From IMG/VR virus record IMGVR_UViG_3300042863_000147, positions 1-64,000 of that record: a DNA stretch of 64,000 nt, one strand, 5' to 3'. This DNA is from a virus. The notes under the pieces were generated by a model, which was not told where the DNA came from, did not search any database, and was given only the letters and a program-made list of their open reading frames with translations. Every line of letters begins with the position of its first letter. Position 1 is the stretch's first letter. This document shows, in pieces, positions 4,221 through 59,900 of the stretch. Made by a program: the position numbers and the translations under genes.

Positions 4221-4228
4221 TATTTATA
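4221..4228 (-). promoter_or_regulatory. T4-type (gp55) late promoter TATAAATA
   Basis: Exact T4 late consensus about 20 nt upstream of the 4201 start. Confidence 0.8.
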
Positions 4229-20628: not shown

Positions 20629-21306
20629 TTAGTTATTAGAAACGCTTACAATACCTGCGGCTGCTGAACCTAATGTCCATCCTGCTGCTGCACCATCTAC
20701 AAATACGAACGAACCAGATGCTGTAGATTGTGTCAATACTGCACGACGAGCAGTTAACTTCTTAACAAAGTATGTGCTACCGTTTGTGTCAGCTGCAATG
20801 ATATTCATTTCACCAGATGCAATAGTTGGAGTTGCAACTAGTTTGCAAATTGCACGACCGTCAGCAGTGTTAACTAGATAACGCTTAGAACCTTCTTGCT
20901 TCTTGATATCAAATAGTTTTGCACTTCCGCCTGGAACCCATGCAAGACCTCTAATAGCATTTTGTAATGTTGTAGTTAGTACTGCAACACCAGTACCAGT
21001 AGTACCGACAGTTGCTGCAAATACTACTGTTGGAGCAGCAGTGTATCCAGTACCAGCAGTATCAATTGTAACGCTGGTTACTGTGTTTCCAGTTTTAACT
21101 GGAGTACCAGCAGCAGTTACGCCGCCTGGAATTTGAGGTGCCGAGAATAGAACTGTTACAGTTCCTGTGCTAACTGTCAAACTAGATGTTGACAATGTGA
21201 TGCTAGCAACGCCTTCGCCGCCTAGGCCTGTTGTACCACCTACGGCTTGGTTAGAATACGGTGAGTTTGTATTACCAAAAAACTTTTCTTTAATTGGACG
21301 TCCCAT
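20629..21306 (-). CDS. Probable head-associated or decoration protein
   Basis: 225 aa, directly downstream of the major capsid gene. Has its own late promoter, an AAGGAG RBS and a terminator; contains a GTGYTAAPTV module. Confidence 0.55.
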   Translation of the reverse strand: MGRPIKEKFFGNTNSPYSNQAVGGTTGLGGEGVASITLSTSSLTVSTGTVTVLFSAPQIPGGVTAAGTPVKTGNTVTSVTIDTAGTGYTAAPTVVFAATVGTTGTGVAVLTTTLQNAIRGLAWVPGGSAKLFDIKKQEGSKRYLVNTADGRAICKLVATPTIASGEMNIIAADTNGSTYFVKKLTARRAVLTQSTASGSFVFVDGAAAGWTLGSAAAGIVSVSNN

Positions 21307-21325
21307 TTTATTTCTCCTTATGTTA

Positions 21326-21380
21326 AGATCGTTCTATGATCTACGCGGATGGTACCGCATAAAACCCTTACGGGCGAACA
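21326..21380 (-). promoter_or_regulatory. Candidate structured 5' leader RNA (three-way junction)
   Basis: GTTC/GAAC closing stem, CCC-GTAA-GGG GNRA hairpin and TATGCGG/CCGCGTA stem, all between the promoter at 21385-21392 and the RBS. Confidence 0.5.
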
Positions 21381-30625: not shown

Positions 30626-30844
30626 TTGTATCTTGATACTGACGGTATCAACAAGCTAGTAACTGAGTACGAAGTCGATACAAAAGCCTTAAGAGAAGAA
30701 TTGTTTAAATTTAGTTGGTATATGAGAGGTGGTCTATCATTCTCAGAAGCATTTTTACTCACTCCAGAAGACCGAGACTTGTTGAATAAGATTATTGAAA
30801 GTAACTTAGAGATAACAAAAGAATCTCAATTACCGTTCTTTTAA
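30626..30844 (+). CDS. gp51: gp51-like baseplate assembly protein; probably the frameshifted C-terminal extension of the gp26-like protein
   Basis: WYMRGGLSFSEAFLLTPEDR; called with a TTG start and no clear RBS. Confidence 0.65.
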   Translation: MYLDTDGINKLVTEYEVDTKALREELFKFSWYMRGGLSFSEAFLLTPEDRDLLNKIIESNLEITKESQLPFF

Positions 30845-31380
30845 ATTTCTATTCCTAAGAAATTACTCTGTAATCCTACTTTAGTTTCTTTGATTGCACC
30901 TAATTTTTGCAGACCGTATGCAACAACTTGGGGTCTACGATCTCCACGAACTGCGTTGATGGTAGCTACTGCCTTATCAATTGCCTGACGACCTGCTGGA
31001 ATCCCTAACCTGCCTTCGGGTGCAGCAGGAGCAGTAGCAGGTGTAGTGCCTGTTGGGGGAGTAACAGGAGCAGTAGCAGGTGTAGTGCCTGTTGGGGGAG
31101 TAACAGGAGCAGTAGCAGGTGTAGTGCCTGTTGGGGGAGTAACAGGAGCAGTAGCAGGTGTAGGTTGTGGTGCTTTATATCCGCCTGCTCTTTGAACATT
31201 CCGTTGTGCAACATTGGCAACTCTACCTGCTTGCTGATTATATACATCTTTAGCACCTGCCCATGCGCCTTTAGCACCTCCAACAACATTTGCAGCACCT
31301 TTTGCTGCTGAACCTAGAGCCCCGGCTAGGCTTAACTCATCTATTTGTTGAGATTCAACGATTAATTCATTTATACGCAT
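30841..31380 (-). CDS. Probable internal head protein with a Pro/Thr tandem repeat
   Basis: MRINELIVESQQIDE N-terminus with (I/L)xE motifs like gp21 cleavage sites; exact TATAAATA promoter upstream. Confidence 0.55.
   Translation of the reverse strand: MRINELIVESQQIDELSLAGALGSAAKGAANVVGGAKGAWAGAKDVYNQQAGRVANVAQRNVQRAGGYKAPQPTPATAPVTPPTGTTPATAPVTPPTGTTPATAPVTPPTGTTPATAPAAPEGRLGIPAGRQAIDKAVATINAVRGDRRPQVVAYGLQKLGAIKETKVGLQSNFLGIEI
31026..31163 (-). repeat. Perfect 39-bp tandem repeat, about 3.5 copies
   Basis: caggagcagtagcaggtgtagtgcctgttgggggagtaa; encodes TPATAPVTPPTGT. Confidence 0.95.
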
Positions 31381-31408
31381 AACAGGAAAGTCCTAAAAGT
31401 ATTTCTTT

Positions 31409-31416
31409 TATTTATA
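31409..31416 (-). promoter_or_regulatory. T4-type late promoter TATAAATA
   Basis: Exact consensus upstream of 31380. Confidence 0.8.
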
Positions 31417-31895
31417 ATGAGCTGACGCTCATTTGCTTCTTCGTAATCGCTAACGCTCTTACTTGAAGCAATGTTTCGTCAAAGACGAGAATAATATTAT
31501 CTAGATTAATCGGTCACACTTAGCCCAGACTAGGGCTAAGAAAAAACTGCATTATCTGAGTAGCACAGTCACATAGTGTTAGAACTACAAGCATTTCTGC
31601 TAGCGTAGGCGGTTGACCGATACCTACTCATTCTGTCTTAACAACGGCGGCTTACAAATATACACTATCATATTTGTAAAGCGTGGAGTTTCTGTTATTA
31701 CTCCATCCTTGGGCCTATTTTTTAACTCTATTCAAACAATCAAACCGCAGGCATTTTGCGATCGTGGTCCGGTTAGGATACTGATTGAGTGCTCACTTCA
31801 GCGGTGAGTCTTCGGATCCCTGCGATGTTAGTCCAGGTTTCTACTGTTCGGCACACGATATTAGCCTGTGCGAGCTTTAACTGAATTAAGTTGCC
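31417..31895 (-). ncRNA. Candidate large structured ncRNA (~480 nt), family unassigned
   Basis: Longest non-coding gap in the window. At least 10 stems, a crossing long-range pairing, and a GAAA tetraloop on the minus strand. Confidence 0.55.
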
Positions 31896-32327
31896 TTAAA
31901 GTTTGGATTTAATGTGTGAGCCATGTACACGGACTTGTATGTGTCCGTTATAGTATTCATCGGATTCTAATACTTTGCGGTCGAATTGTTCGCGGGCCTC
32001 AACGTAAGATGTTTCTGCTTTAGATTTACAGTAATATAATATTTCGCGGGAGAAGTTTTCTTTGCCTAGGGTGTCTATGTCTTTTGTCAGCTCAACACTG
32101 GAGCCGTAATATTCTTGCCAGTCGCTATCTATTTTGCTTCTGATCTTCTTTTTCTTTTTTGTGCCGTTCTTTAACTTTACAGTCTTGTAGGTCGTTTTAC
32201 TAAATTTTGCTAATTTTTTGCCAATATACTTGCGACCCGAGACTGTATTGGTAATGCAATATACAAAACCAATACAGTCATCGGGTAGCTCTTCAACTAC
32301 TGAACCTTGATAAGTCCAGTTAGTCAA
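31896..32327 (-). CDS. Minimal GIY-YIG family endonuclease with a Lys-rich insert
   Basis: GFVYCITNTVSGRKYIGKK ... YYGSS ... E ... YYN; 143 aa. Confidence 0.8.
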   Translation of the reverse strand: MTNWTYQGSVVEELPDDCIGFVYCITNTVSGRKYIGKKLAKFSKTTYKTVKLKNGTKKKKKIRSKIDSDWQEYYGSSVELTKDIDTLGKENFSREILYYCKSKAETSYVEAREQFDRKVLESDEYYNGHIQVRVHGSHIKSKL

Positions 32328-32525: not shown

Positions 32526-32826
32526 TTTTATTTCCTTTTGGTTTCGGTCCCCGTTTTTTAGGGATTGCTTTGAGTCTTGCTTTCTCTGCCTTTGCATTTT
32601 TTAGCTCTGCTCTTTTATTTTCCATACTTTCTTTGCAAACTTTTTGTCCCTGACGTTTCATCTCGTTTGCAATGTTAGCAATGGCTCTTAGGTGCCTCCT
32701 AGTATCCCAGCCTGAATCTCTGCCTACATATTTGATAAATTTCAAATGTGTATTATGCAGTCCCACAAGCTCAGCTACTAGCTGTGAATACAGTTCCTTA
32801 TATTTGTTTATCTCTTCATTCGACAT
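32509..32826 (-). CDS. Basic helical protein, possibly a divergent Hc1 paralogue
   Basis: 105 aa; DTRRHLRAIANIANEMKR; K-rich tail with KKRGPKPK. Confidence 0.55.
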   Translation of the reverse strand: MSNEEINKYKELYSQLVAELVGLHNTHLKFIKYVGRDSGWDTRRHLRAIANIANEMKRQGQKVCKESMENKRAELKNAKAEKARLKAIPKKRGPKPKGNKNDNNQ

Positions 32827-34594
32827 AATCTACATCGTTTGAGTAAGAAGTAAAACCGTTCTCTTTAACAACTCTGAGTACGTTATTAACACGACCTACT
32901 AATTCGTCCTTATGACTTATTAAGTATATATTCTTATTGCGTTCCCGTGCCATCTTTTTTAGGACCGCAAGTCCTGCTTCAACGCCTGCTGCATCCATAC
33001 CTGCATCCATAAGTTCATCGACAAATAGTAAGTTAATATTCTGATACAGTCCTTCCCATACATCACGGAATGCAAAGCTCATAGAAAGAATTAATCGATT
33101 GCGCTCACCTCTAGATAAGTTGTCAAAGTCTAGATCCTGCCCTAGCTGAGTAATCTCAATAGTAAGATCATTTAAGAATACAACCTTATGAGGCAACCCT
33201 AACTTGTCAATATAGTAAGTCAGCCTCTTGTTTAAGTAGGTTAAATTCTGATCAATAATCTTCTTACGAACAAAACTGTCCTTGTTTGTTAGCAATTTGT
33301 AAAGGAATTCTTGATGATCTCTGACCTTAGCAAGAGCATTTACTTGATCCCAATTGATTTCTTGAATCGCAGTGTTCTTTAAGTCTTCAATTTGCTCTTC
33401 ATAAGGATTAGCTTCGTCGATCTTTTGTGTCAATGTACGCTCTAAGCTGGCAAGATTGTTTTTATGACCTAGTGCTTCTGCTTCTGTATCATAATATGTG
33501 TTGGGCCTATGCGGTTGCTCACCAATTCCTATCTCTTCTACAATTTTAGTGTAGTCAGCACTTACTTTATCAAAGTAAGTTTGTGCATCTAATAGGTTGT
33601 TAGCAGCAGTTGCTAGCATTTCGTCATGCTTGTGATCATGTAGATCCTGTTCACAAGCGGGGCACTTCTTATCATCGAGTGATTTAATCTCTTTGATGTA
33701 TTTGTTTAAAGCACGTTCTGCTTGAATTACTGCTGACTCTAGAGTAGCACGTTGTTTGTTAAGACTGCGAATACGAGCATCCTCCTCGTCCCATGCTTTT
33801 AATGCAACATGAGCGGCTAGTTCTGCTTCTATATCAACTGATTCTAGATTAACAATGGCTTTACCTAGCCCTTCTATTTCAGTTTCTTTCTTAGATTCCC
33901 AGGCACTGCTCTTGAGTTGTAGGCTGTTAATGCTCTTTTGAACGTTTTCGTTAGCACTCTTAATACCTTCAATTTTAAACTGTGCAGCAGTGATGCTGTC
34001 TTTAGTTTCTTTAATCAATAGCTTTAGTGCTTCTGCCTTTTCACTCAGTTGTGTGATGCCCAGTAACTGTTCGATAACTTCTCGTTGTTCAGCCGCCTTC
34101 ATACTTAAGAAGGGTTCTGTGTAGGTATTGAGTGCAACTAGGTGTTTGAACATAGTATGAGACATTGCCAGCATCTGCTCAATGCTCTTCTGCGTCTCGC
34201 GACTGTCACCTTGTGCTTCATCTTCGTCTTTGCTCTTTAATTCTTGGTCATTGACGAACAATTTCAGTACATTAGGCTTACGACCTCGTTCAATACGATA
34301 CTTGACACTAGATTTTTCAAACTCAACAGTAACCAACATGCCCTTGCCGTTAGTCTTGTTGATTAAGTTCTCTTTCTTAATGTTGGTCAGTGCTTGCCCG
34401 TACAGTGCGTAGCTCAATGCATTAACAATAGTAGTCTTGCCTGTACCGTTTCTTGATCCAGTATCGTCACCGCCTAGATCCTGATTTGAACCTAGTACAA
34501 GAGTTAAGTGTTCTTTATCGAAATCAACTGCTTGAGTCTGGTTGCCCACACTCATAAAATTTTTAACGGTTATATTTTTTAACTTAAATGTCAT
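32816..34594 (-). CDS. gp46: Recombination ATPase, Rad50/SbcC-like (gp46)
   Basis: Walker A NGTGKT, CPAC zinc hook, LSRGE signature, LLFVDE Walker B, ISH. Confidence 0.95.
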   Translation of the reverse strand: MTFKLKNITVKNFMSVGNQTQAVDFDKEHLTLVLGSNQDLGGDDTGSRNGTGKTTIVNALSYALYGQALTNIKKENLINKTNGKGMLVTVEFEKSSVKYRIERGRKPNVLKLFVNDQELKSKDEDEAQGDSRETQKSIEQMLAMSHTMFKHLVALNTYTEPFLSMKAAEQREVIEQLLGITQLSEKAEALKLLIKETKDSITAAQFKIEGIKSANENVQKSINSLQLKSSAWESKKETEIEGLGKAIVNLESVDIEAELAAHVALKAWDEEDARIRSLNKQRATLESAVIQAERALNKYIKEIKSLDDKKCPACEQDLHDHKHDEMLATAANNLLDAQTYFDKVSADYTKIVEEIGIGEQPHRPNTYYDTEAEALGHKNNLASLERTLTQKIDEANPYEEQIEDLKNTAIQEINWDQVNALAKVRDHQEFLYKLLTNKDSFVRKKIIDQNLTYLNKRLTYYIDKLGLPHKVVFLNDLTIEITQLGQDLDFDNLSRGERNRLILSMSFAFRDVWEGLYQNINLLFVDELMDAGMDAAGVEAGLAVLKKMARERNKNIYLISHKDELVGRVNNVLRVVKENGFTSYSNDVDYVE

Positions 34595-35604
34595 AGATTA
34601 TTATAGATGTCCAACAGGACTTTTTTATCAAACTGTTCTGATTCGATATTGATCAGCTGTTCGGAAACAATTTGATCGACACTTTCAAACTTTGTGTCAG
34701 GATTGTCTTCATAAGTTCCTTCAAGATTAATTTTATCTTGTATAAGACTAATTTCTCTAATGTCGTAATCATTAGTAAAAGTCTCCTTGATAAAGTTAGC
34801 CTCTTCAAAGCTGATATCGATGTCTAAATTGACCTTTAGATGCATCTTTGACTGCATAATCGTGTCTTTTTTATCGATTAGGTCGCTTAGTTTAACATGT
34901 CTATACTTAGGGCAGTTGTCCCAGTTAATGTATTGGGGCTCACTGCCCCAATCCATAATCATCATGCCTCGCTCGTCGTCCCACGAGTCTGCAAAGTTAT
35001 GTGGGAAAGCATTTCCAATGTAGTGGATCTTACCTCGGTTCTGTCTCTTGTGGAAATGCCCACTGAATACATAGTCTTGGTGTGTAAAGTGATTAGCCTG
35101 TAACTCACCGTGATCAGGCATCTGTACCATGGCGTTCATGTAGAACAAGGGCAATTCAAAGTGCCCAAACATGTATTTGCTCTTAACTTGACTGATAGTT
35201 TTCCACTCATCACCTACAAGCCAAGGGACTAAGGTAACATCGCCTATAGTGGTCACACCTTCAACGACAGTTACTCCGGGAATATGTTTTCCAAATGCGC
35301 TGCTATGGATGTCACGCTTGTCTTTGTAGAACAGATCATGATTGCCCGGAAACCAAAAGAATTGCTCAAAAGCAGCACCTAGTTTTTCCAAGCATCGGAT
35401 ACTGGTATCCAGCGTGATCAAGTTGAGACTGTTTCGATTATGCGACCAGTCACCTAAAAATATTCCAGTATCGCAACCTTGTTTTTTAGCGTTTTCAATA
35501 TACCAATCTACAAATTCTTCGCAATCTCTTAAATGGGTGCCACTGTTAGATTTAAGTCCAAAATGAATATCAGTGAAGCAGGCTACCTTTTTAAAAAGGT
35601 TCAT
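34591..35604 (-). CDS. gp47: Recombination nuclease, Mre11/SbcD-like (gp47)
   Basis: DIHFG, LGD, GNHD, GHF and SGHFH phosphoesterase motifs. Confidence 0.95.
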   Translation of the reverse strand: MNLFKKVACFTDIHFGLKSNSGTHLRDCEEFVDWYIENAKKQGCDTGIFLGDWSHNRNSLNLITLDTSIRCLEKLGAAFEQFFWFPGNHDLFYKDKRDIHSSAFGKHIPGVTVVEGVTTIGDVTLVPWLVGDEWKTISQVKSKYMFGHFELPLFYMNAMVQMPDHGELQANHFTHQDYVFSGHFHKRQNRGKIHYIGNAFPHNFADSWDDERGMMIMDWGSEPQYINWDNCPKYRHVKLSDLIDKKDTIMQSKMHLKVNLDIDISFEEANFIKETFTNDYDIREISLIQDKINLEGTYEDNPDTKFESVDQIVSEQLINIESEQFDKKVLLDIYNNL

Positions 35605-47945: not shown

Positions 47946-50900
47946 ATGGCGGATATTAAAAAATCAGTTAATCTATTACCCGAGTATCTAAGAACTAGTA
48001 AGAATTCTAAATTTTTATCTAGTACAATTGATCAGCTTATTCAAACTCCGAGAGTTGAAAGAGTTGATGGGTATGTTGGATCTAAACTAACGCCTAACTA
48101 TAATCCTTCTACAGATTTTTATATTAAACAAGCGTCACTATTAAGACAAAATTATAGTTTAGAACCTGCCGCCATATTCAATGATCAAGCAGGCAACGTG
48201 ACTGATGTAGTGTCGTATGACGATTTAATTAACGAGCTGTCAATTCAAGGAGCAAAGACTGACAATTTAGATACTTTACTTAGATCAAAGTTCTATGCCT
48301 ACGACCCATTAATTGACTGGGACAAAATAGTTAATTACACGGACTACTATTGGGTTCCGTTAGGACCCGATGCTATTATTTTATTTGATGAAAATTTAGA
48401 TGTCACCGATATTATAGGTAACCAGACTTACACAATGAGTAATGGTTATCCATTGTCTAATGGAATGAAGATTGCATTTTTTGATAATACAATTCAAGCC
48501 GAATATAGGAGAAAAGAATTTATAGTAGAAGGAGTCGGTTCATCGATTAAATTACTTGATTTTTCATTGTTGAGTTCAAATGACAGAATATCTCGAGTGT
48601 TTGATGAAGAGTTCGATTCGACTATTTTTGATAGTTACCCATTTGATAGTGATAGAAAGTTTCCTATCACTCCAGATTACATCACTATTAATAGGTCAAG
48701 TAATGATTTAAACCCATGGTCGAAGTATAATAGATGGTTTCATAGAGATGTAATTCAAGCCACTGCAGAAATTAATAAAGTTCCAGTGATTTATCCGTTA
48801 GCGGCTAGAGCTCGACGACCTATTATTGAATTTAAGCCTAACATTCAGTTATTCAATTTTGGAAAAGTAGGCATCAGAGATGTCGATGTTATTGATGTGA
48901 CTACTAAAGATGCCTTTAATGAAGTTGATGGCACGTATGGGTATTATGTTGATGGGGTGTTATTGCAAAAAGGACATCGTGTAATTTTTAATGCAGATTC
49001 TAATAACGATGTTAGAGGTCGCATATACGAAGTTAATTTTGATGTTACCGGCCCTGTTCCTGTACTAAGATTAGTCGTTCCTTCCGACAATCTTCCGTCT
49101 GAGCTAGATTCAGTGGGAGTAAATTTTGGTACAGATTATTACGGAACAAATTGGTTCTTTGACTCGTCGATAAATCAATGGAAATATGCACAACAACACA
49201 ATGCAGTGAATCAGCCTCCGCTGTTTGATCTGTTCACGAATGACGGAATTAGTATTTCTAAGATCACAGATGCTAGTAATTTTACAGGAAATCAAATTTT
49301 TGGTTATGAGGTAGGCACCGGAGTAGTTGATGAAGTTTTAGGATTTCCATTAAAATATAAAAACAATATTAAAGTAGGAACAGGAAGTTTTCCTTTTAGA
49401 ACATATTTTTTAACTGATGTTATTTCGATTATTTCTAATAATCAAAGTAGCAGTCTGTCTGCTTCTACTACCTTTTTAAAATTAAATGATTCGTTAGTTA
49501 ATATTTGGGTAGAGGCAGAAGATTATCAAATTCCTATAATTGAAGTTCAGACTATATCAGAATCTACGTCTTCTCTAGTACTGACTTGTTTAGATAAACC
49601 TATTAACACTAATATTTCAGTTACTGCATCTGTTAATGATGTAATAGTTCCTGTGACAATCACTGCAACTCCATCTAGCGTTACAGTGAATACAGAAGAT
49701 ATTCTGCCAGCAGGCTCTACAATACAGTTAAAAATTGAAACAGATCAGTTGCCTAACAGCAACGGGTTTTATGAAAGTCCAGTGGGCCTTACAAAGAATC
49801 CACTAAATGAAATTATATCATCTATAACTCTTAGTGAGTTAGGTGATCATTTGTCTTCAATGACAGGAAAATTAACTGGATTTACAGGAAAGAATTTAAG
49901 GGATTTATCTAACTATACCAAATATGGATCTAGGCTAGTAGCTAACGCTAATCCTATTGTATTTTCACAGATATTTTTAGGAAAGAAAGAACATAATGTA
50001 ATTGATGCAATTAGACAAGCAGGTACGTTCTATGATCAATTTAAGATGAACTTTCTAAGATTACTTACTACAGTGGATGATCAATTGTCCGCTGCGGATG
50101 CATTAGATGAAGTTTTAAAAACTATTAACAAAGCCAGAGATGTTAAGTCGCCGTATCAGAGATCTGATATGTTAGGTTACGGTGATGATAAAATAGTAAG
50201 AACATTTACGGTTACGAGTAGAGGCAATGTAGAGTATCCTACTGGAATTGAATTTGATTTAACTAGATTGAGTTTTAACTCTGTGTTAGTTTATCTAAAC
50301 AGTGTGCAATTAATTGCCAATCGAGATTATACATTTGACTACATTAACGGTTCAGTTACACTACTGACTGCATTAAACATAGATGATGTTATTTCTATTA
50401 ATTATTATCCTAACACCCTAGGAACATATATACCTCCTACTCCTAGTAAATTAGGATTGTATCCAGCATATGTACCTGAGTTATTTACAGATACTTCTTA
50501 TGTAACACCTTCGTTGTCTATTAGAGGACACGACGGAAGTATTATAAAGGCATACGGTGACTACCGAGATGCGATAATTCTTGAATATGAAACTAGAGTC
50601 TATAACAATATTAAAACACAGTATCGAAAAGAAGTATTCGACATCATCGGAATTCAACCTTCGGCATTTAGAATGTCAAAGTATGATATTGATGACTTGA
50701 ATAATATTCTAGTTAATGACTTTTCTAGGTGGTCTGGTATTAACAATATTGATGCATCTGCCAATACAGTTTTTGATGAAGGAAATCCTTTTACTTGGAA
50801 CTATAAAGGTAGCGTCGATAATGTATTAGATTCCGTTGTATCTGGGTACTGGAGAAGTTTGTTTAAGTATTTCTATGACACTGATTGTCCCAACACCAGA

Positions 50901-53900
50901 CCTTGGGAAATGTTAGGGTATTCTATCAGACCTGAATGGTGGATCGATACTTACGGAACCGCTCCTTATGCATCTACTAATACATTATTATGGAATGATT
51001 TAAAGAATGGATATTCGAGAGGAGAAAATGCAGTATTCTCTAAATATGTGCGTCCTGACTTATTATCAATTATTCCTGTAGATTCGACTGGTAATCTAAA
51101 GAGTCCAAACTTGTTCTTAGTGTCCCCTAACGGATACCAAGATAAAATTGCAAAATGGACATTTGGCGATCAGTCACCTGCAGAAACCGCATGGCGCAGA
51201 AGTAGTAACTGGCCTTTTGCAATTAACGCAGCCGCTGCTTTATTAGATCCTTGCGGGTACTGTTCTGCATTATATGATGTTAGTAGAACTTCTGTAAATG
51301 CACTAAATCAAATTACATATCAAACAGATGGTCTCTATTTAAATCCTAAAAATCTATTGATAGAAGGCGAGGATAATACTCAAGTTGCAGGATTCGGAAC
51401 GTATCTTGTTGAAAAGGGAAAACAAAAAGATCAAAATTATGTCAATACACTACGGCAAGATTTAACAAATCTTAAAGTAAGTCTGTTTCATAAATTAGGC
51501 GGATTTGCTAGCAAGGAAAAATTGCAAATTATTATTGATTCAATTGATCCTACATCGACTAGTCCAGGGGTTGTCTTACCACCAGAAGACTATTCATTGA
51601 TTTTAAACGTAAGTAACCCTATTAAGGTTGCAAGAGTTTCTGGAATTATAGTACAAAAATCAGAAGGAAAGTTTATAATCAAAGGTTACGATGTTGCTAA
51701 TCCTTATTTTGAAATACTACGTCCTTTAAAAACTGCAATTTCAGGAGTAGTTAAAGTAGGAGGTGTGTCAGAGCAATTCAGCGACTGGTCTAATGTCGTT
51801 AATAACGGCAACAAAGGTCTAAGTTCAGTAGATACAACTTCTGCCAATTCAACAACTAGTCGGTATTATAAGCAAGGTCAGTTAGTAAGATATAACAGCC
51901 GATTTTATAGAGTTAAAGTAGGACACGAAGCACAATCAACATTTGATTCTTCGTTGTATCAGGCTCTTCCTGAATTGCCAATAGTTGGCGGTGCAGTTGC
52001 ACAACTACCTGCAAGATATGAAACTGAAGTTACTAAAGTTCCCTATGGCACTGAAATGACATCAGTTCAAGAAGTGTATGATCTGATTGTTGGATACGGT
52101 GCATTTCTTGAAAAAGAAGGATTTGTGTTTGATGAATTTAGTACTGAGCTAAATGAAATATTAAATTGGAAATTCACAGGTAAAGAATTTTTGTACTGGA
52201 CAACTCAGAACTGGGCTGATAATAGTCTAATTACATTGAGCCCTTTTGCGAATTATTTAAAATATAGTTTCCCTAATTCTGTTACTGACAACATTACTTC
52301 TAGCAAATACGAATACAGTCTGTTGAAGGCTGATGGAAAACCTTATCCTATTGAACGAGTGACAACAGATAGAGAGGATACTGTATGTACAATTAGAACA
52401 AATGATCCTAATGAAGGATTATTTTTCGCAACATTAAATTCTGTGCAAAAAGAACATGGCATGGTGTTTAATAATTTTACAATTTTTAACGACACAATTT
52501 ATGACACCCCGACTGGGTATAAACAACGAAGAATTAAACTTTCTGGATTTAGAACTAAAGACTGGAACGGTGATTTGTTTAGTCCAGGGTTTGTTTTTGA
52601 CAACGTCAAAATCACTGACTGGAAGTCGTACGAAAATTATTTGCCAGGTGCAGTAGTAAGATACAATGGAAAATATTATGAATCATTAGTAAGGATTACT
52701 GCCGATTCAACATTTGATTTTACTAAGTGGAGCCAGTTGGCCGATAAACCTGAATCACAACTTCTTCCAAACTTCGATTACAAAATAAATCAATTTGAAG
52801 ATTTTTACAGTTTAGACATTGATAATTTTGATTACGGACAGCAACAACTAGCCCAACGCTTGACAGGATATACTCCTAGAACATATCTAAATAATATTTT
52901 TACAAACCCTATTAGTCAGTATAAATTTTATCAAGGACTGATCAAAGATAAGGGTACTAAGAATGCAGTTGATAAATTATCAAAGGCTAGTGAATTTACT
53001 AACAAAGGTGATATTACTTTTAAAGAAGAGTGGGCATTTAGAATAGGTCACTATGGAAGTTATGAAACATTTAAAGAAATTGAATTTCCTTTAACAGAAG
53101 GTTCTTCTTTAGAAAATCCTTATATAGTTAAGTTTGACAACACTAGTCCTTTCGATGCTAATCCTTTAATTAACTATGTGACTCCTGCAGATCTGTTAAT
53201 AACATCAACGGACTATAATCCAGCATCTACATTTTCGTCGTATCCTAGCACTTGGTTAGATAATAACATAAAATTATCCACGGCTGGATATGTACGCCCT
53301 GATGATATAACTTCTACGGCATACAATAAAAATAGCTTATTAGACATTGCTAATAATTCCATTATAAAAAATGGAGATACCATTTGGCTCGGGTTCCAAG
53401 AAAATGGCGATTGGACAGTTTATAGGTATATTAATCAGTTAGCAAAGATTACTGGAGTATTTGTTAGTGCGCCTGGTAGTGAAATTACATTTGTATCAGA
53501 CAGTCATCACGGTCTACAAATTGGAGATATTATTTCTATAGTCCGATTTAATGAACAAGTCGATGGTGTATATGTTGTTAATAATGTAACTGAATTAAAT
53601 CAATTTACAGTTTCTTCGGAACTTGCAAGTATAGAAAATGCCGAACTATTAAATTACGGATCTTTATACAAGTTTGAAAATGCCAGGTACAGTAATTTAA
53701 CAGAACTGTCTCAGGTCACTGATTTATTAAAATTAAATGCAGGCGACAAAGTTTGGATTGACGAAGGCCTTGCAGGCAAGTGGCAAGTATATGAGAAAGT
53801 TAAAAATTATCTCACAACGGCCATTGAGCCTGCTAACTTTCCAATGGGTCAAAAATTTGGATACACTATTTTTGCAACCGATGATAGCCTTGTAATGTTA

Positions 53901-56900
53901 GTGTCTTCTCCTAGTTGGAGAATCGACGGAGCATTTAGCCAAGGTCGAGTTAAAGTTTTAAATAAAGTTAATAATAAGTGGGTTAATCGATACGACTACA
54001 TGTTAAACAATAGTCGAGATGTCTATTGTAGCCCAACTAGCTCAACTCAGTTCGGATATTCTCTAAACTATGATTTAAATAAAAAATTATATTTTACAGG
54101 TGCTCCTGAAGCAACATACGTTCGTGCTCCTTTGACTACTGGAACAGTTATTTTAAGTACTGGTTCCGGAGTGGCAAAAACATTCATTAACGAAGGCTTG
54201 GTTAAAATTAACAGCAGGTCTGAGGACTTTGGTATTATTAACGTTGATCTAGTATTAGTTAATCCTAATGCCGGAACCGAATTGACTGCAAATAATTCTA
54301 GATTTGGTCACTCGATATATATTGATCAGGTTGAAAAAACTTCTGCTACTACTGTCCTGGTGAGCGCCCCCGGTACCTCTACTTTTGCAGGAGTGGGATC
54401 AGTATATGCATATAGATTGACACCGGACACCGTGGATAGTATTACAACTGCAACACTTAGCGTACATCCTTCCGGATTAAGTGTTGAATCTACTTCTTCA
54501 ATTGTGTTATCTAATGGATCACAATGGGGTTATAAAATTGCAGGATCTAATGACGGGTTGTTAATTGCAATTAGCGCACCTGGATATTCTACAGCTACTG
54601 GTGTAGTTCAATTATTTGATAGTAATTTGCAGCATGTGCAAACGATCCTCTCACCGTTCGGTGAAAAAGGAAAATTTGGGTACGATATTACTGTATCATC
54701 TTCAAAACAATATTTGATTATCTCTGCACCTGAAGTTAAAAGTTCAAATGTGCCATTTGGAAAAGTTGTAATATATACATTAACTGATGACGGTACATAT
54801 GAGTTGTACCAAATGATTAATAATCCCTTACCCGGAGTAGATTTAAAATTTGGATATTCTATCTCGATTAGCGATGATGAATCAACTATTGCAATCGGGT
54901 CGTTAGGTAAGAGCCGTTCAAAAGAACAAGTATATGACAGTAACAGCAACATACCTAGTACTGTATTTGACAGCGGCTCGACTACATTCTTTGAATCACT
55001 ACCTGATGCTGGTACAGTTTATGTCTATAATAAATTAGGAGACTATTTTGTTCAGGCAGATGAACTAAACGATGTTCTGATTGTACCGGGCAGCAGATAC
55101 GGTAGTGCGGTTATTGCAACAAATGACGAAATTTTTGTAGGATCCCCTACGTCTCAAAATAATGTTGGATCTACAGAAGACCAATCTAATTTATTCATAT
55201 TTGGTAAAAAAGATAAAGACTCGTTGAGTTGGAAACTGTTAAGAGAGCAAACAGATACTACTGAAATATCTAATATAACTCGAGTCGCATTAATTGACAC
55301 GTTAAATGAGGAAGTAATTGATTACTTAGATGTAATCGATCCACTGAAGGGTAAGATTGCCGGCATTGCAGAACAAGAATTAAAATTTAAAGCAGCATTT
55401 GATCCTGCAGTATATTCTATTGGTTTAGCAGGTGTAATAGTTAATACTACTATTAACTGGATGGACGAACACGTAGGGGAACTATGGTGGGATCTAAGCA
55501 CAGCCAAGTACATGTGGTATGAGCAAGGTGATGAAATTTATAGAAAAAATAACTGGGGTCGAATGTTCCCTGGTGCAAGTATTGATGTCTATGAATGGGT
55601 TAAATCGGATCTATTACCGAATGAATGGGCTGCACAAGCCGATACTACTGAAGGACTAGTGAATAGTATAAGCGGACAGCCAAAGTACCCTGACAATAGT
55701 GTTATTTCTGTTAAGCAATTGTTTAACAACGTAACCGGCTCATTTGAAAATGTATATTATTACTGGGTAAAGAATAAAGTTACCTTGCCAGCAGCAAAAA
55801 ATAGAAGATTGAGCGGATCTCAAGTTACAAGTTACATTGCTGATCCTGTAGCATCGGGGTTAAAGTTCATTGAAGTACTATCTACTAATGCCGTTGCATT
55901 TGCTAACGTTCAGCCTTCTTTAATTAGTGACAGAATTAACGCAAACATTGCCATTGACTTAAATTCAGTTGTGCCCAAGCACACTGAGTGGTTGCTGTTA
56001 AATGAAGGTGATCATACTAGTGTTCCTAATACTCTGTTAGAGAAAAAACTATTTGATAGTTTAATTGGTCAAGATTCACTTGGTAACGCAGTACCAGCAG
56101 ACGAGCTCACTTCGAGGAATAGGTACGGCATTGGTATCCGCCCTCAGCAGACCTTATTTAAAGATCGGCTTGGTGCTCTAAGAAATGCACTAACTTTTGT
56201 AAATTCTGTCCTAGCATCTAATCAAATTGTTGGCATATATTCTTTTGAAACGCTCAACAAGAGAGAAGAAATTCCTAATTTACAATTGTATGAGTATGAT
56301 TTAATTGTCGAAGACTTGGACGTACTTCAGGAAATTTCTACAATAAATTATGTCAGAGCCGAAGTAACCTGTCATGCATTGAATGGAAAATTAAGAAATA
56401 TAGTTATTGATAATCCTGGATTTGGTTATCTTATCGCTCCTAAGCTGACAATACTTTCTTCAAGCCGAACACCTGCTGAAGTAGTTACTGAAATAGATGC
56501 ACAGGGCAGAGTAATCTCTGCTAGCATTGTATCAGCTGGGGCCGGGTATGATGATGGAATATTATCATCATTAATCCGTCCGCATTCTGCTATTGTTGAA
56601 GTTAATAACTTAGCAGGTAATCGTTGGACTAAACACAGTTTTGATTATGATTTGAAAGCATGGACTACTGCACAAACGCAGAAATATAACACGCCACTTT
56701 ATTGGTCAAAGATTGACTGGGTAAGTAAAGATTACGATTCTTACAGGCTAGTTGCATACACGATATCTGATTTATTTGAATTAGGATCTTTGTCATCTGT
56801 TGAGGCAGGTGAGTATGTAAAAGTTAAAAATATCGGTGATGGCAACTACGCAATACTTAAAAAAGTAGAAGACGGCGGAAATTACATTCCGTCTTATGAT

Positions 56901-59900
56901 ATTATATATCGTGAGCAAGGTACTATTCAGATATCTGACTTATTATGGAATTATAATTCTGGAAAAGTGGCATATGATGCTGCAACAATTGAAGAAACAC
57001 TATATGATCAAATTCCTAGTCAAGAATTGCTGTACATATTAACTGCTTTAAAGAATGATATCTTTGTAAATAATTTAAAAGTAAATTGGAATTTATTTTT
57101 CTTCAATGCAGTAAAATATGCCCTAACGGAACAGAAATTATTAGACTGGGCATTCAAAACATCGTTCATTAATGTAAAAAATAAAATAGGCACATTAAAT
57201 CAGCGTTCTGTTTATAACTTAAACAACGAGCAATATTTTGAACAGTACATTAATGAGATTAAACCATATCATACAAAAATAAGAAGTTATACATCTGCCT
57301 ACGACAAAACTGAGCAAGCCGATGTATATACTACCGATTTTGACTTGCCCTCTTATTACAATACCTTAACTGATACGCTTGATGTGGTTCAGTTAGGAGA
57401 TTCATTAATATCTACTGCACCGTGGAAATCTTGGAATGAGAATTACAAGTTGTACGTCGGTGCGATCGAAGTTGGATATACTGGATCAGGTTATACTCAG
57501 CGTCCAACTGTTACTATTACAACTATACCAGGAGATACAGGAACAGGTGCCGCGGCTGAGGCCTATATTAGAAATGGATCAGTATATAAAGTTCTTGTGA
57601 CTAATCCAGGAAGTGGATACACTATGCCGCCTACAGTTACTATTACAGGCGGTGGCCAAGTTACTGATGTTGCTAGGGTATCGGTAGTTATGGCTAACAA
57701 TAATGTTAGAAAAAATATTATAGGAATGAAATTTGACAGGACTTCAGTAGAAGGAGATTTAATTGATTTAACTGTGACTGACGAATTCATTTGCGACGGG
57801 ACACTAGATAAATTTACATTAACTTGGCTAGCAAGTCCGGATAAAAAAACTATAACACCTTTATTGGACGGTAAGTTAATATATGGAACAGATTATACCA
57901 TAGAGTATTATCAAACTAAAGTCTCTGATCGGTATGTAGATGTTGATAAGTCTTTTCCAAAAGGTTCGTGGGAAGGTGAAACGATGGTCGACCATCGTTA
58001 TAGATACTTCGTGAATACTAATAGTACCGATGATGTTGTTGGATCAATTAGACATTATGCTAAATTTGTATTCTTAAAACAAGTCCCTAACGACGGTCAG
58101 GTGTTTAAGATTACATATAAAAAGAGTCTAGATTTATACAATGCAATTGATAGAATTAACAGTTTGTATAATCCTACAGATGACATGCCTGGGAAAGAAT
58201 TACCGTTGCTAATGTCTGGTGCAGAATATCCTGGTACAAGTTTGCAAGGACTAATGTTTAATCAAACACCGCAATGGGATAGTACGGGCACACAGTATGA
58301 CACAGCACCTTGGGGCGATTACATTAGCAGTTATACTACTAAGAAGTTGAAAAGCGATTTGTACATTGGGACACAAAATTTTACCGTTGATTCAACTGAT
58401 GGTATTGCTGTAGGACAAACTGTAAAAGTAGTCGGCACATCGACAGTCGCTCACTTTAAACCAGGCACAGTAGTTACTGATGTCCTTTCCGGATCTAACC
58501 AAGTTATTATAGGTACATTAAGTACTGAAAAAACAATGATCACACATGCAGTATCTACCAATACAGCTATCGGATCCGTTGTTACTTTAGAAACTTCTAA
58601 ATTGTTCCATACTGCAATTAATAAGGATGACTTTATACAGATTAATGGCATTGAAAGTTTATTGGGTCGAGGAATTTCTTTATATGTAAATGTAATATCA
58701 CCTCCGGCGGTATCAACTTCGACTGCAATACCTTCAGTGACTGTAACATTTAGTCCTCCTGATTTCCCAGGAGGAATTCAAGCAACTGGTATTCCAGTAT
58801 TTGACCAAAATACAGCAACTGCGGTTCTAGTCACTAATCCTGGAATGGGATATCGTAATGCACCAACGGTAACATACACAGGTACTAATATGCTATCTAC
58901 TGGATTTGCAGTAGCGTATCTAGATCCAGGTTATAATCAATTTGCACAAGTTACAACTTGTACATCTAATACTTTACAATTTAGAACAGCATTTACTTTA
59001 AGCAGTACTGCAACAATCTTAGAACCCGGAGCAGGATTTTATCTAGCTAGCCAAATTGTGAATGAAATCGGATCGGCTGATAAACTGATAGATCATGTTA
59101 CACTAGTCTCGAGTGGAACTACATCTATTTCAGTTAATACATTTGCACCTCGAAATAATGTTGTTCGTGCAGAAGTTACTTTAAATTCGACGCAAATTAA
59201 TTCAACTAGCACTGACACACTTTGGTACAGTATTTCAAATTCAGTCGATGGATATAATCGAGCAGTCGTAACAATTCAAGATACATTAACTAATACAATC
59301 ATTAACGGTGATGTTGATGTTAAATTGTATGATAACACTGAACTTGAATTTTATACATACGATACTGATTATAATTTAGATAGTATTGTTGATGGATCCA
59401 ACTTAGTTGACACTTCTGTAGGATACAAACCAGAAGATATCGTTATAGACGGAAATACATTCTTAAATGCTTTTGATTCTTATGCACCTGAAGAATGTGT
59501 GCCCGGCCATGTAAGAGATTCAGTGGGTATAAATGTTTATACTGTTTCTGAACCATCAGCTCCTTTGGTAATTTCTGGAGCATTTGCAGCAATTGATTCT
59601 GGAATATCTGCAGCAAAATTAAGTTTTGTGCCAGATACTCCTCTAGGATTCTTAGTATATGCAAATGGAAAATCATTTACACGAGTAGCAAACCAAGCAG
59701 CGTTTAGTTCTTCTACACAATATTGTTTCTATGAAGGCAGCATCGTAGTTCCTGCACAACCAGCAAACACTAGAGTAGGATACACCTATGTTACCGCAGG
59801 TGCAGATGTATTATTTGATAGCAGTTACGTATCTACTGATACTGAACAGTCGGGTAACACAGGTACTGCAATGGCGTCTAGTTTGCTGTTAATTGACGAT

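What the first reader, a model, noticed from the sequence alone, without database searches (positions are those of the whole stretch)
31417..31895. Candidate ~480-nt ornate, pseudoknotted ncRNA
Seen (plus-strand coordinates): stems at 31519-26/31533-40 (8 bp), 31652-61/31670-79 (10 bp), 31684-89/31700-05, 31737-42/31782-87 enclosing 31743-47/31770-74, 31792-96/31804-08, 31819-22/31834-37 and 31851-55/31867-71. A hairpin at 31590-31601 reads AGCA-GAAA-TGCT on the minus strand. Long-range pairs 31557-63/31624-30 (7 bp) and 31509-16/31614-21 (8 bp) cross, forming a pseudoknot. It is the only gap of this size in an otherwise densely coding window. Established: phages carry large structured RNAs such as GOLLD and ROOL; I cannot match this sequence to them. 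Inference: a novel large RNA transcribed at the end of the gp47-gp46-Hc1-GIY-YIG operon.
Basis: partly seen in the sequence, partly recalled or inferred. Interest (0 to 1): 0.85.

Follow-up and report, generated by a model that had tools for sequence, protein, structure and literature searches.

The report
Large twin-box phage RNA gene
The 515 gene-free bases behind a small nuclease gene of this uncultured giant freshwater T4-like phage encode a real, multiply knotted non-coding RNA of about 470 bases; its first third is the catalogued orphan motif Polynucleobacter-1, and the uncatalogued rest shows one 7-letter word twice, always identical, for a purpose still unknown.

Summary
The finding is real, but only partly as described. 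The gap 31381-31895 carries a structured RNA on the minus strand. It is conserved over its whole length in about 170 IMG/VR phage contigs (123 non-redundant). On those 123 sequences, 88 base pairs in 21 helices are 95% paired (shuffles 82%, slid controls 36-42%), and 64 pairs show compensatory changes. Four of the helices are pseudoknots.

Rfam matches positions 31734-31876 to Polynucleobacter-1 (RF01718, 80 bits, cut-off 37). So the RNA is not unmatched: it is the full-length form of a 2010 orphan motif. About 330 further bases are uncatalogued.

Near the 3' end, two boxes about 55 nt apart (ACUC+word and AUCU+word) carry the same 7-mer in 112 of 113 sequences, despite at least 41 word changes on the tree. 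I found no third covarying partner. A second, Rfam-less RNA class occupies the same slot in other phages and has the same twin-box design.

Function is unknown. My best reading is a stand-alone RNA made at the end of the SbcD/SbcC-Hc1-GIY-YIG operon. Earlier agents of this scan reached the same reading on other genomes.

The parts
31416..31895 (-). Whole RNA gene, about 470 nt. It runs from just after the GIY-YIG stop codon to the terminal hairpin that abuts the TATAAATA box.
   Evidence: Alignable over its full length in about 170 loci. Covariation is seen all along it.
31734..31876 (-). 5' domain = Rfam RF01718 Polynucleobacter-1 (helices P1-P6)
   Evidence: 80.2 bits against a cut-off of 37, model positions 1-141 of 141. 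13 of 13 homologous loci score 77-118 bits.
31798..31884 (-). Pseudoknot PK0. Positions 12-16 (31880-31884), upstream of the Rfam model, pair with the P3 loop at positions 94-98 (31798-31802).
   Evidence: helices 1-2: four of the five pairs are 92.9% paired and the fifth 81.7%; all five pairs show changes on both sides.
31863..31876 (-). Pseudoknot PKa. Positions 20-22 pair with positions 31-33, which lie in the P1 loop.
   Evidence: helix 3: 93.8% paired, 2 of 3 pairs compensatory.
31731..31738 (-). Invariant strand UGUUUGAA (positions 158-165). UUUGA pairs with box 1 to form helix P7, which closes the central domain.
   Evidence: Seven of its eight letters are invariant in 123 of 123 sequences and G159 is kept in at least 90%. 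helix 13: 99.8% paired, with only one-sided R-to-R changes opposite U.
31650..31682 (-). Long hairpin P9 with loop AUAGUGU
   Evidence: helix 15: all 12 pairs show compensatory change.
31573..31668 (-). Pseudoknot PK1. The P9 loop (positions 228-234 = 31662-31668) pairs with ACACUAU (positions 317-323 = 31573-31579).
   Evidence: helix 16: 7 of 7 pairs compensatory, 96.5% paired.
31612..31645 (-). Pseudoknot PK2. GUUGU (positions 251-255) pairs with the P12 loop UCAAC (positions 280-284).
   Evidence: helix 17: 96.4% paired, 3 pairs compensatory.
31582..31633 (-). P11 (positions 263-266 with 311-314), enclosing P12 (positions 269-274 with 286-290)
   Evidence: helices 18-20.
31590..31601 (-). 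AGCA-GAAA-UGCU hairpin, a clade-specific insertion at a variable site
   Evidence: other members have nothing or other inserts at this site.
31551..31572 (-). Box 1: GUGAC-N6-ACUC-AGAUAAU
31519..31540 (-). Hairpin P13, lying between the two boxes
   Evidence: helix 21: 94.6% paired.
31496..31517 (-). Box 2: GUGAC-N6-AUCU-AGAUAAU (the same 7-mer as box 1)
31416..31434 (-). Terminal hairpin (positions 462-480)
   Evidence: 8 bp, all covarying, 204-208 compensated cells.
31409..31416 (-). TATAAATA box (the T4 late-promoter consensus) in front of the next gene. It is not part of the RNA.
   Evidence: An exact TATAAATA lies there in 43 of 123 homologues, with near variants in 33 more. The reading as a late promoter rests on my knowledge of T4.
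31896..32327 (-). Upstream neighbour: a 143-aa GIY-YIG protein
   Evidence: Pfam SegE_GIY-YIG, E = 1.7e-33. Present directly upstream in 106 of 114 non-redundant loci.

Best explanation
The gap is a gene for a stand-alone structured RNA of about 470 nt on the minus strand. It is the full-length form of the orphan motif Polynucleobacter-1, and it occurs as a single copy in giant (about 350 kb) freshwater T4-like phages.

Shown:
- It folds into a 5' domain (P1-P6 plus two pseudoknots).
- It has a central domain closed by the invariant strand UGUUUGA pairing with box 1. This domain holds two more pseudoknots.
- It has a 3' part with a second, identical box and three hairpins.

Inferred:
- It is transcribed by read-through from the SbcD/SbcC-Hc1-GIY-YIG early/middle operon and ends at the terminal hairpin, just before the late promoter of the next gene.
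- It acts as an RNA in its own right (a scaffold, RNP or ribozyme-like molecule), not as a leader of a neighbouring gene.
- The two boxes are coupled as tightly as a base pair, but by identity rather than complementarity. Box 1 is held in helix P7 and box 2 is free. The RNA therefore presents one lineage-specific word in two states, either to an unknown reader or to its own invariant strand (strand exchange or assembly).

What the RNA does for the phage is not known.
For: Conservation: the whole gap aligns at 66-96% identity in about 60 gp46-linked loci and in about 170 loci overall.

Structure: 88 pairs, 95.0% paired against 81.8% in shuffles and 36-42% when slid. 64 pairs have double changes. 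1374 cells are compensated against 378. The covariation score is 0.402 against 0.165 (0 of 500 shuffles reach it).

Strand: invariant G-U pairs and the Rfam hit both point to the minus strand.

Partial family identity: RF01718 at 80.2 bits here and 77-118 bits in 13 of 13 homologues.

Copy number: one copy in each of two 99-100% complete genomes of 345-355 kb.

Independence from the neighbouring genes:
- The late-promoter-like TATAAATA lies downstream of the RNA.
- 8 of 114 loci have another gene upstream.
- A second RNA body with the same twin-box 3' design fills the slot in other phages.

Twin boxes:
- The 7-mer is identical in 112 of 113 sequences, with at least 41 changes on the tree.
- Positions +1 to +6 are 100% identical, with no mixed states.
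- The flip counts (5-25) are in the range of true base pairs (7-35).
- No third covarying column exists within -900 to +250 nt.
- Word positions 1, 2 and 5 vary only A/G, and each faces a U of UGUUUGA.

RNA libraries: contigs from two freshwater metatranscriptomes cover 31556-31771 and 31720-31962. This is a weak hint only.
Against: - No direct evidence of a transcript, its ends or its strand. The RNA runs are contigs and may contain DNA.
- There is no terminator-like U tract after the terminal hairpin.
- P7 has no compensatory change, because the 5' strand is invariant, so it is consistent with the data but not proven.
- In locus L078 the word breaks 1 of the 5 P7 pairs counted and 3 of the 7 possible with UGUUUGA, yet both boxes still match at 6 of 7 letters. 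In locus L231 a class-1 word sits in both boxes of a class-2 body with no change in the neighbouring strand. Pairing to the invariant strand therefore cannot explain the identity.
- No reader of the word was found.
- Function is entirely inferred.
Confidence: 0.6

Rival explanations
1. A cis-acting element of a neighbouring gene. It would be either a very long 3' UTR, terminator or insulator of the GIY-YIG operon, or a 5' leader or riboswitch that controls the variable gene downstream.
For: - The RNA starts right at the GIY-YIG stop codon.
- Weinberg 2010 scored the 5' motif as a likely cis-regulator.
- The 3' hairpins and box 2 lie about 90 nt before the next start codon.
Against: - A TATAAATA box lies between the RNA and the next gene, so late transcripts of that gene would not contain the RNA (promoter reading from T4 knowledge).
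- About 470 nt with four pseudoknots is far beyond what known terminators or leaders need.
- The upstream gene differs in 8 of 114 loci, and the downstream gene varies from 168 to 760 aa.
Confidence: 0.12
2. The RNA is the partner (guide or scaffold) of the minimal GIY-YIG nuclease and/or the two small basic Hc1-like proteins of the same operon, forming an RNP.
For: - The GIY-YIG gene sits directly upstream in 106 of 114 loci and also precedes the class-2 RNA.
- The nuclease is only 143 aa and has a lysine-rich insert.
- An Hc1-like gene lies directly upstream of the GIY-YIG gene.
Against: - 8 of 114 loci have unrelated upstream genes.
- The word does not covary with any column of the upstream 900 nt, which include the GIY-YIG gene.
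- No complement of the word recurs elsewhere in five large genomes above the control level.
- In T4, GIY-YIG Seg-type genes are selfish neighbours of RNA genes (SegB in the tRNA cluster; my own knowledge).
Confidence: 0.08
3. The selected object is DNA, not RNA. It could be an origin or iteron-like region, a recombination or homing target, or a microhomology-driven deletion switch in which the two identical boxes are direct repeats.
For: - Identity, not complementarity, is what recombination, slippage or one DNA-binding protein would require.
- The locus lies beside recombination genes (SbcCD-like) and a homing-type nuclease.
Against: - 64 pairs with compensatory changes, invariant G-U pairs and four pseudoknots are signatures of a folded single strand of one polarity.
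- Fixed differences inside the repeat (CUC against UCU in 123 of 123; G against A at +8 in 107 of 123) argue against gene conversion.
- No contig joins box 1 to box 2 (table 5).
- The box motif occurs nowhere else in the window.
Confidence: 0.07
4. A self-splicing intron, self-cleaving ribozyme or other mobile RNA element associated with the homing-type endonuclease gene.
For: - The size and the pseudoknotted core resemble group I introns.
- T4-type introns carry GIY-YIG genes (my own knowledge).
- The same word at two sites could mark two processing sites.
Against: - No Rfam intron or ribozyme family matches, even at E up to 10.
- The flanks are two separate complete genes with a stop codon, a promoter-like box and a Shine-Dalgarno sequence, so there is no exon continuity.
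- No ORF crosses the boxes, and their spacing varies from 47 to 63 nt.
Confidence: 0.05

Closest known systems
Polynucleobacter-1 RNA motif (Rfam RF01718; Weinberg et al. 2010, PMC2864571)
   Same: - Window 31734-31876 matches the whole 141-position model at 80.2 bits.
- Its helices P1-P6 covary in the homologues.
- The sources are freshwater metagenomes.
- The 2010 supplement already noted a recurring upstream gene family and suspected phages.
   Different: - The catalogued motif is 141 nt, built from 16 examples, was scored as a likely cis-regulator, and was 'not detected in any sequenced purified phage'.
- Here it is the 5' third of an RNA of about 470 nt in T4-like phage contigs.
- Two pseudoknots touch it (PK0, PKa) that the model lacks.
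- A central domain, the twin boxes and the 3' hairpins are all uncatalogued.
GOLLD and ROOL (large ornate RNAs, often in phages or prophages; Rfam)
   Same: Large size, many pseudoknots, phage location and unknown function. This is a likeness in kind only.
   Different: No Rfam match to either family at gathering score or at E up to 10. The RNA is smaller (about 470 nt). The twin-box feature is not described for either (my own knowledge).
T4 SegB, a GIY-YIG gene inside the tRNA gene cluster (from my own knowledge, not checked in a paper here)
   Same: A Seg-type GIY-YIG gene sits next to stable-RNA genes of a T4-type phage. The nuclease is a neighbour that favours inheritance of the region, not a partner of the RNA.
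   Different: Here the GIY-YIG gene is present in nearly all relatives (58-97% amino-acid identity) rather than sporadically. The RNA is not a tRNA.
Class-2 RNA of the same slot
   Same: - Same genomic slot.
- Same 3' design: ACUC+word, hairpin, GUCUGAC, AUCU+same word, then the same kind of 3' hairpins.
- A CUAACA strand that pairs with a GUUAG hairpin loop, as in PK1.
   Different: - Unrelated body of about 390 nt.
- No RF01718 domain.
- Usual word is ACAUGAA.
- The CUAACAC strand is at the 5' end instead of downstream of the hairpin.

Membership tests
Rfam RF01718 Polynucleobacter-1 | Covariance-model score at or above the curated gathering score (37 bits) over the full model | tested here: met
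   80.2 bits, E = 2.2e-15, model positions 1-141 of 141, minus strand.
Rfam RF01718 Polynucleobacter-1 | The model's helices are kept by compensatory changes in relatives | tested here: met
   P1, P2, P3, P4 and P6 are 93-100% paired, with double changes in most pairs (helices 4-12).
Rfam RF01718 Polynucleobacter-1 | Context reported in 2010: downstream of a recurring gene family (GOS11034), in freshwater or estuary samples | tested here: inconclusive
   A GIY-YIG gene lies upstream in 106 of 114 loci. Contigs from lake and freshwater runs lie on the region. Whether GOS11034 is this GIY-YIG family could not be checked.
Rfam RF01718 Polynucleobacter-1 | Extent: a motif of about 141 nt | tested here: not met
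   Conservation and covariation continue for about 330 nt further 3' and 8 nt further 5'. The family as catalogued is a fragment of this RNA.
GOLLD / ROOL | Match to the Rfam covariance models | tested here: not met
   No hit in the window at gathering score, nor in the gap at E up to 10.
Group I / group II introns and known self-cleaving ribozymes | Rfam model match, and interrupted host gene (exon continuity) | tested here: not met
   No Rfam hit. The flanking genes are complete and separate.
tRNA / tmRNA | ARAGORN detection | tested here: not met
   0 genes found in the window.
Guide RNA of an RNA-guided nuclease | A variable segment complementary to a target, and obligate linkage to the nuclease gene | tested here: not met
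   - No recurrent complement of the word locally or in five large genomes.
- Linkage to GIY-YIG is broken in 8 of 114 loci.
- The word is 7 nt long and occurs twice in the same sense.

The most novel reading that the evidence does not exclude
The two boxes touch each other directly. They would form a parallel-strand, like-with-like contact (A with A, G with G, U with U, with fixed C/U pairs), or a three-strand element together with the invariant UGUUUGA strand. That would be an RNA tertiary motif that shows up as 'identity covariation' and is shared by two otherwise different large phage RNAs.

This fits three observations:
- Only two sites need to change together, at the same rate as true base pairs.
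- No third partner was found.
- Whole words can be swapped in both boxes without any change nearby.
Probability: 0.15. Interest if true: 0.9.

Novelty: new variant of a known kind. Interest (0 to 1): 0.72.

Why it matters
- It turns a 16-year-old orphan Rfam motif, catalogued as a 141-nt possible cis-regulator of Burkholderiales and freshwater samples, into the 5' domain of a multiply knotted RNA of about 470 nt. That RNA is carried once per genome by well over a hundred giant freshwater T4-like phage contigs.
- Large ornate RNAs of unknown function are rare, and they have repeatedly led to new biochemistry.
- The twin boxes give a sharp, testable handle. Two sites are constrained to be identical as strictly as paired bases are constrained to be complementary, in two unrelated RNA bodies. 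No known RNA mechanism obviously demands this.
- The Rfam family could be rebuilt from the alignment made here.

Tried and rejected
- blastn of the gap against 50,697 GenBank phage records: no match.
- Central-domain pattern in 185,579 prokaryote genomes: 6 hits. None matches the RNA profile or encodes gp46 or GIY-YIG, so they are chance matches.
- RF01718 in 151 sampled Burkholderiales genomes (one of them a MAG): none found. This is not evidence of absence.
- Other Rfam families in the gap: only Methylobacterium-1 at 24 bits (cut-off 40, E = 0.065) and two snoRNA models. I treated these as chance.
- RNAalifold on the raw full-length MAFFT alignment gave a poor structure. Helices were instead found by column-pair statistics.
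- The boxes as a general promoter: GTGAC-N-AYYY-AGATAAT occurs only at the two boxes. All the other 12 YAGATAAT sites but one lie inside ORFs.
- A cis or nearby partner of the word: wobble-tolerant complement scan of each locus and mutual information over -900 to +250 nt found nothing.
- A trans partner: the complement plus RRR in five genomes of 130-355 kb gave only the boxes' own opposite strand, plus hits at the control level.
- freshwater-2 RNA as partner: no complement seen.
- Coding or ribosome-hopping reading of the boxes: no ORF reaches them, and the spacing varies from 47 to 63 nt.
- A special copying mechanism for the boxes: not needed, because ordinary base pairs flip as often on the same tree.
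- A class-2 upstream strand CUUCCAAUGU as the partner of box 1: it is unchanged in L231, whose word differs at 4 of 7 letters, so I rejected it.
- RNA-seq runs: only Logan contigs were available, so transcript ends, strand and level could not be read. Shares of words were small.

Full report
WHAT IS THERE.

The window is the first 64 kb of an 89-kb IMG/VR viral contig. On the minus strand the gene order is as follows:
- an SbcD-like gene (gp47 type, 34591-35604);
- an SbcC-like gene (gp46 type, 32816-34594);
- a 105-aa basic protein;
- an 89-aa Hc1-like protein;
- a 143-aa GIY-YIG protein of the SegE type (31896-32327);
- the 515-nt gap (31381-31895);
- a 179-aa repeat protein (30841-31380).

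The gap is the largest internal ORF-free stretch of the window. It folds better than all dinucleotide shuffles on either strand.

KNOWN PART.

Rfam 15 places RF01718 (Polynucleobacter-1) at 31876..31734 on the minus strand, at 80.2 bits against a cut-off of 37 and over the full model. Nothing else in the gap reaches a family threshold.

The only paper in the library that names the motif is Weinberg et al. 2010. It lists the motif as a probable RNA and possible cis-regulator from 'Burkholderiales, fresh water/estuary'. Its supplement gives 16 examples and says that most lie downstream of one gene family, that the 3' half is not always detected, and that none was found in a sequenced purified phage.

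RELATIVES.

- The SbcC-like protein brought in 80 related IMG/VR loci.
- In about 60 of them blastn aligns the gap, mostly over its whole length, at 66-96% identity. The gap always lies after the same GIY-YIG gene and is mostly 455-555 nt long.
- A profile search then gave about 170 instances. 123 remain after removing sequences more than 97% alike.
- Thirteen of 13 diverse members match RF01718 at 77-118 bits.
- Two 99-100% complete genomes of 345-355 kb carry exactly one copy each.
- The same pattern gave only chance hits in 185,579 prokaryote genomes.

STRUCTURE.

Helices were found from column-pair statistics. They were then counted with the pair-counting tool on a fresh MAFFT alignment of the 123 sequences (A1). 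The result:
- 88 pairs in 21 helices.
- 95.0% of cells form standard pairs, against 81.8% in shuffles and 36-42% when partners are slid.
- 64 pairs change on both sides.
- 1374 cells are compensated, against 378 in shuffles.
- The covariation score is 0.402 against 0.165 (0 of 500 shuffles reach it).

In minus-strand numbering (p = 31896 - window coordinate) the 5' domain holds:
- P1 25-29/41-45
- P2 59-62/74-77
- P3 88-90/102-104
- P4 109-114/154-159
- P5
- P6 133-138/148-153
- two pseudoknots that the Rfam model lacks: PK0 12-16/94-98 and PKa 20-22/31-33.

The central domain is closed by P7 (160-164/337-341) and holds:
- P8
- the long hairpin P9
- PK1 (P9 loop 228-234 with 317-323; 7 of 7 pairs compensatory)
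- PK2 (251-255 with the P12 loop 280-284)
- P11 and P12.

Then follow P13 (356-363/370-377) and the 3' hairpins. The last of these (462-480) has 8 covarying pairs.

Invariant G-U pairs fix the strand as minus. Because PK0 begins 12 nt after the GIY-YIG stop codon, the transcript must start inside or upstream of that gene.

Seven local stems coincide with P1, P2, P3, P4, P8, P9 and P13. The GNRA hairpin is real but is an insertion special to the window's clade. The stem 31743-47/31770-74 and both long-range pairs are paired in only 54-65% of cells and show no convincing covariation. The pseudoknot as drawn is therefore not supported, although the RNA is indeed pseudoknotted.

TWIN BOXES.

- Box 1 is GUGAC-N6-ACUC-AGAUAAU (31572..31551).
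- Box 2 is GUGAC-N6-AUCU-AGAUAAU (31517..31496).
- They are the only two such sites in the window.

Across the family the 7-mer after ACUC or AUCU takes at least 10 forms, yet it is the same in both boxes in 112 of 113 sequences. It changes at least 41 times on a tree built from the rest of the RNA.

Position by position:
- -4 is A in both boxes in 120 of 123.
- -3 to -1 are always CUC in box 1 and UCU in box 2.
- +1 to +6 are 100% identical, and +7 is 99% identical.
- +8 is G in box 1 and A in box 2 (107 of 123).
- -5, -6 and +9 are identical more often than not.

All four fixed differences are transitions.

True Watson-Crick pairs of this RNA flip 7-35 times on the same tree with few intermediates. 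The box positions flip 5-25 times with a single mixed state, at +7. The constraint is therefore as strong as base pairing, needs only two sites to change, and requires no special copying mechanism.

Word positions 1, 2 and 5 vary only between A and G, and each faces a U of the invariant UGUUUGA in P7. This supports P7. It does not explain why box 2 must follow box 1, nor why position 7, which lies outside P7, must match.

No other column within -900 to +250 nt carries more than background information about the word. No complement recurs in the loci or in five large genomes above the control level.

A SECOND RNA IN THE SAME SLOT.

In loci L005/6, L024, L030/35, L040, L044, L061 and L068 the slot holds a different conserved sequence of about 390 nt with no Rfam match. 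A pattern scan found 45 contigs carrying it.

It ends with the same design: ACUC+word, a GGAACC/GGUUCC hairpin, GUCUGAC, then AUCU+same word. Among 25 distinct sequences:
- the boxes read ACAUGAA in 20;
- GCAUGAA in 2;
- the class-1 word GGAUAAU in 1 (L231);
- in 2 the boxes differ at the 7th letter.

In L231 both boxes carry the foreign word, while the hairpin between them and the strand upstream are unchanged. That rules out a single recombination event and rules out a local pairing partner.

Class 2 also pairs a CUAACA strand with a GUUAG hairpin loop, like PK1.

EXPRESSION.

Only assembled contigs of public runs could be laid on the region. Two freshwater metatranscriptomes hold contigs of close relatives over 31556-31771 and 31720-31962. 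Two 'RNA-Seq' runs that may be DNA cover the region more fully. This is a weak hint and says nothing about strand or transcript ends.

READING.

Shown:
- A conserved, single-copy, minus-strand RNA fold of about 470 nt.
- Its 5' third is Polynucleobacter-1.
- There are four pseudoknots.
- There are two identity-coupled boxes.

Inferred:
- Read-through transcription from the early/middle operon.
- A 3' end at the terminal hairpin, before the TATAAATA of the next gene (T4 late-promoter consensus, from my own knowledge).
- A function as an RNA in its own right.

The GIY-YIG gene is a near-constant neighbour (106 of 114 loci), but I read it as a neighbour and not a partner: linkage is broken in 8 loci, nothing in it covaries with the word, and it precedes both RNA classes.

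What reads the word, and what the RNA does, remain unknown. The possibilities I could not exclude are:
- an external reader that covers about 13 nt and tolerates transitions;
- exchange of the invariant strand between the two boxes, within one molecule or between molecules;
- direct like-with-like contact of the boxes.

EARLIER SCAN NOTES.

After I had reached this reading, the scan's index showed that follow-up agents had described the same 'twin-box, extended Polynucleobacter-1' RNA on other genomes, with the same open question. I tested their main claims independently here. The class-2 RNA with twin boxes, the L231 word swap, the transition-only fixed differences and the base-pair control for flip rates do not appear in the short summaries that the index returned.

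Noticed in passing
L005:5612-6010 (also L006, L024, L030, L035, L040, L044, L061, L068, L205-L248): A second conserved non-coding RNA of about 390 nt ('class 2') fills the same slot in other phages. It has no Rfam match. It has covarying hairpins and a CUAACA/UGUUAG loop-strand pairing. It has the same twin-box 3' design (usual word ACAUGAA). Some loci add an ORF of about 100 aa in front of it.
   Followed up: partly
L231 (IMGVR_UViG_3300021963_003887), boxes about 70-150 nt after its class-2 core motif: A class-2 body carries the class-1 word GGAUAAU in both boxes. The hairpin between the boxes and the upstream strand are of the ordinary class-2 type.
   Followed up: partly
window 21304-21375 (-): Rfam freshwater-2 motif (RF02980, 56.9 bits, cut-off 49.9). 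It lies in the 5' leader of the gene that starts at 21306, just after a terminator-like hairpin GACCCGCUUCGGCGGGUUUUUU.
   Followed up: partly
window about 31035-31165 (-), inside the 179-aa gene 30841-31380: About three tandem copies of a 39-nt unit encode TPATAPVTPPTGT repeats. The homologous gene in relatives ranges from 168 to 760 aa.
   Followed up: no
window 31415/31896 (run X1, table 5): A contig of a lake-water run joins 31415 to 31896 with 461 other letters in between. This is a relative in which the whole RNA slot is replaced, probably by class 2.
   Followed up: no
window, whole: TATAAATA occurs only twice in 64 kb (4221-4228 and 31409-31416, both on the minus strand), against 8.9 expected. 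It is under-represented, as a used signal might be, yet far rarer than late promoters are in T4.
   Followed up: no
window 31778 and 31767 (minus-strand positions 118 and 129, inside P5): Non-canonical covariation: U/C in 71 sequences and C/U in 52, with no other combination. This suggests a pyrimidine-pyrimidine contact inside the Polynucleobacter-1 domain.
   Followed up: no
window 47946-61661 (+): A single ORF of 4571 aa.
   Followed up: no
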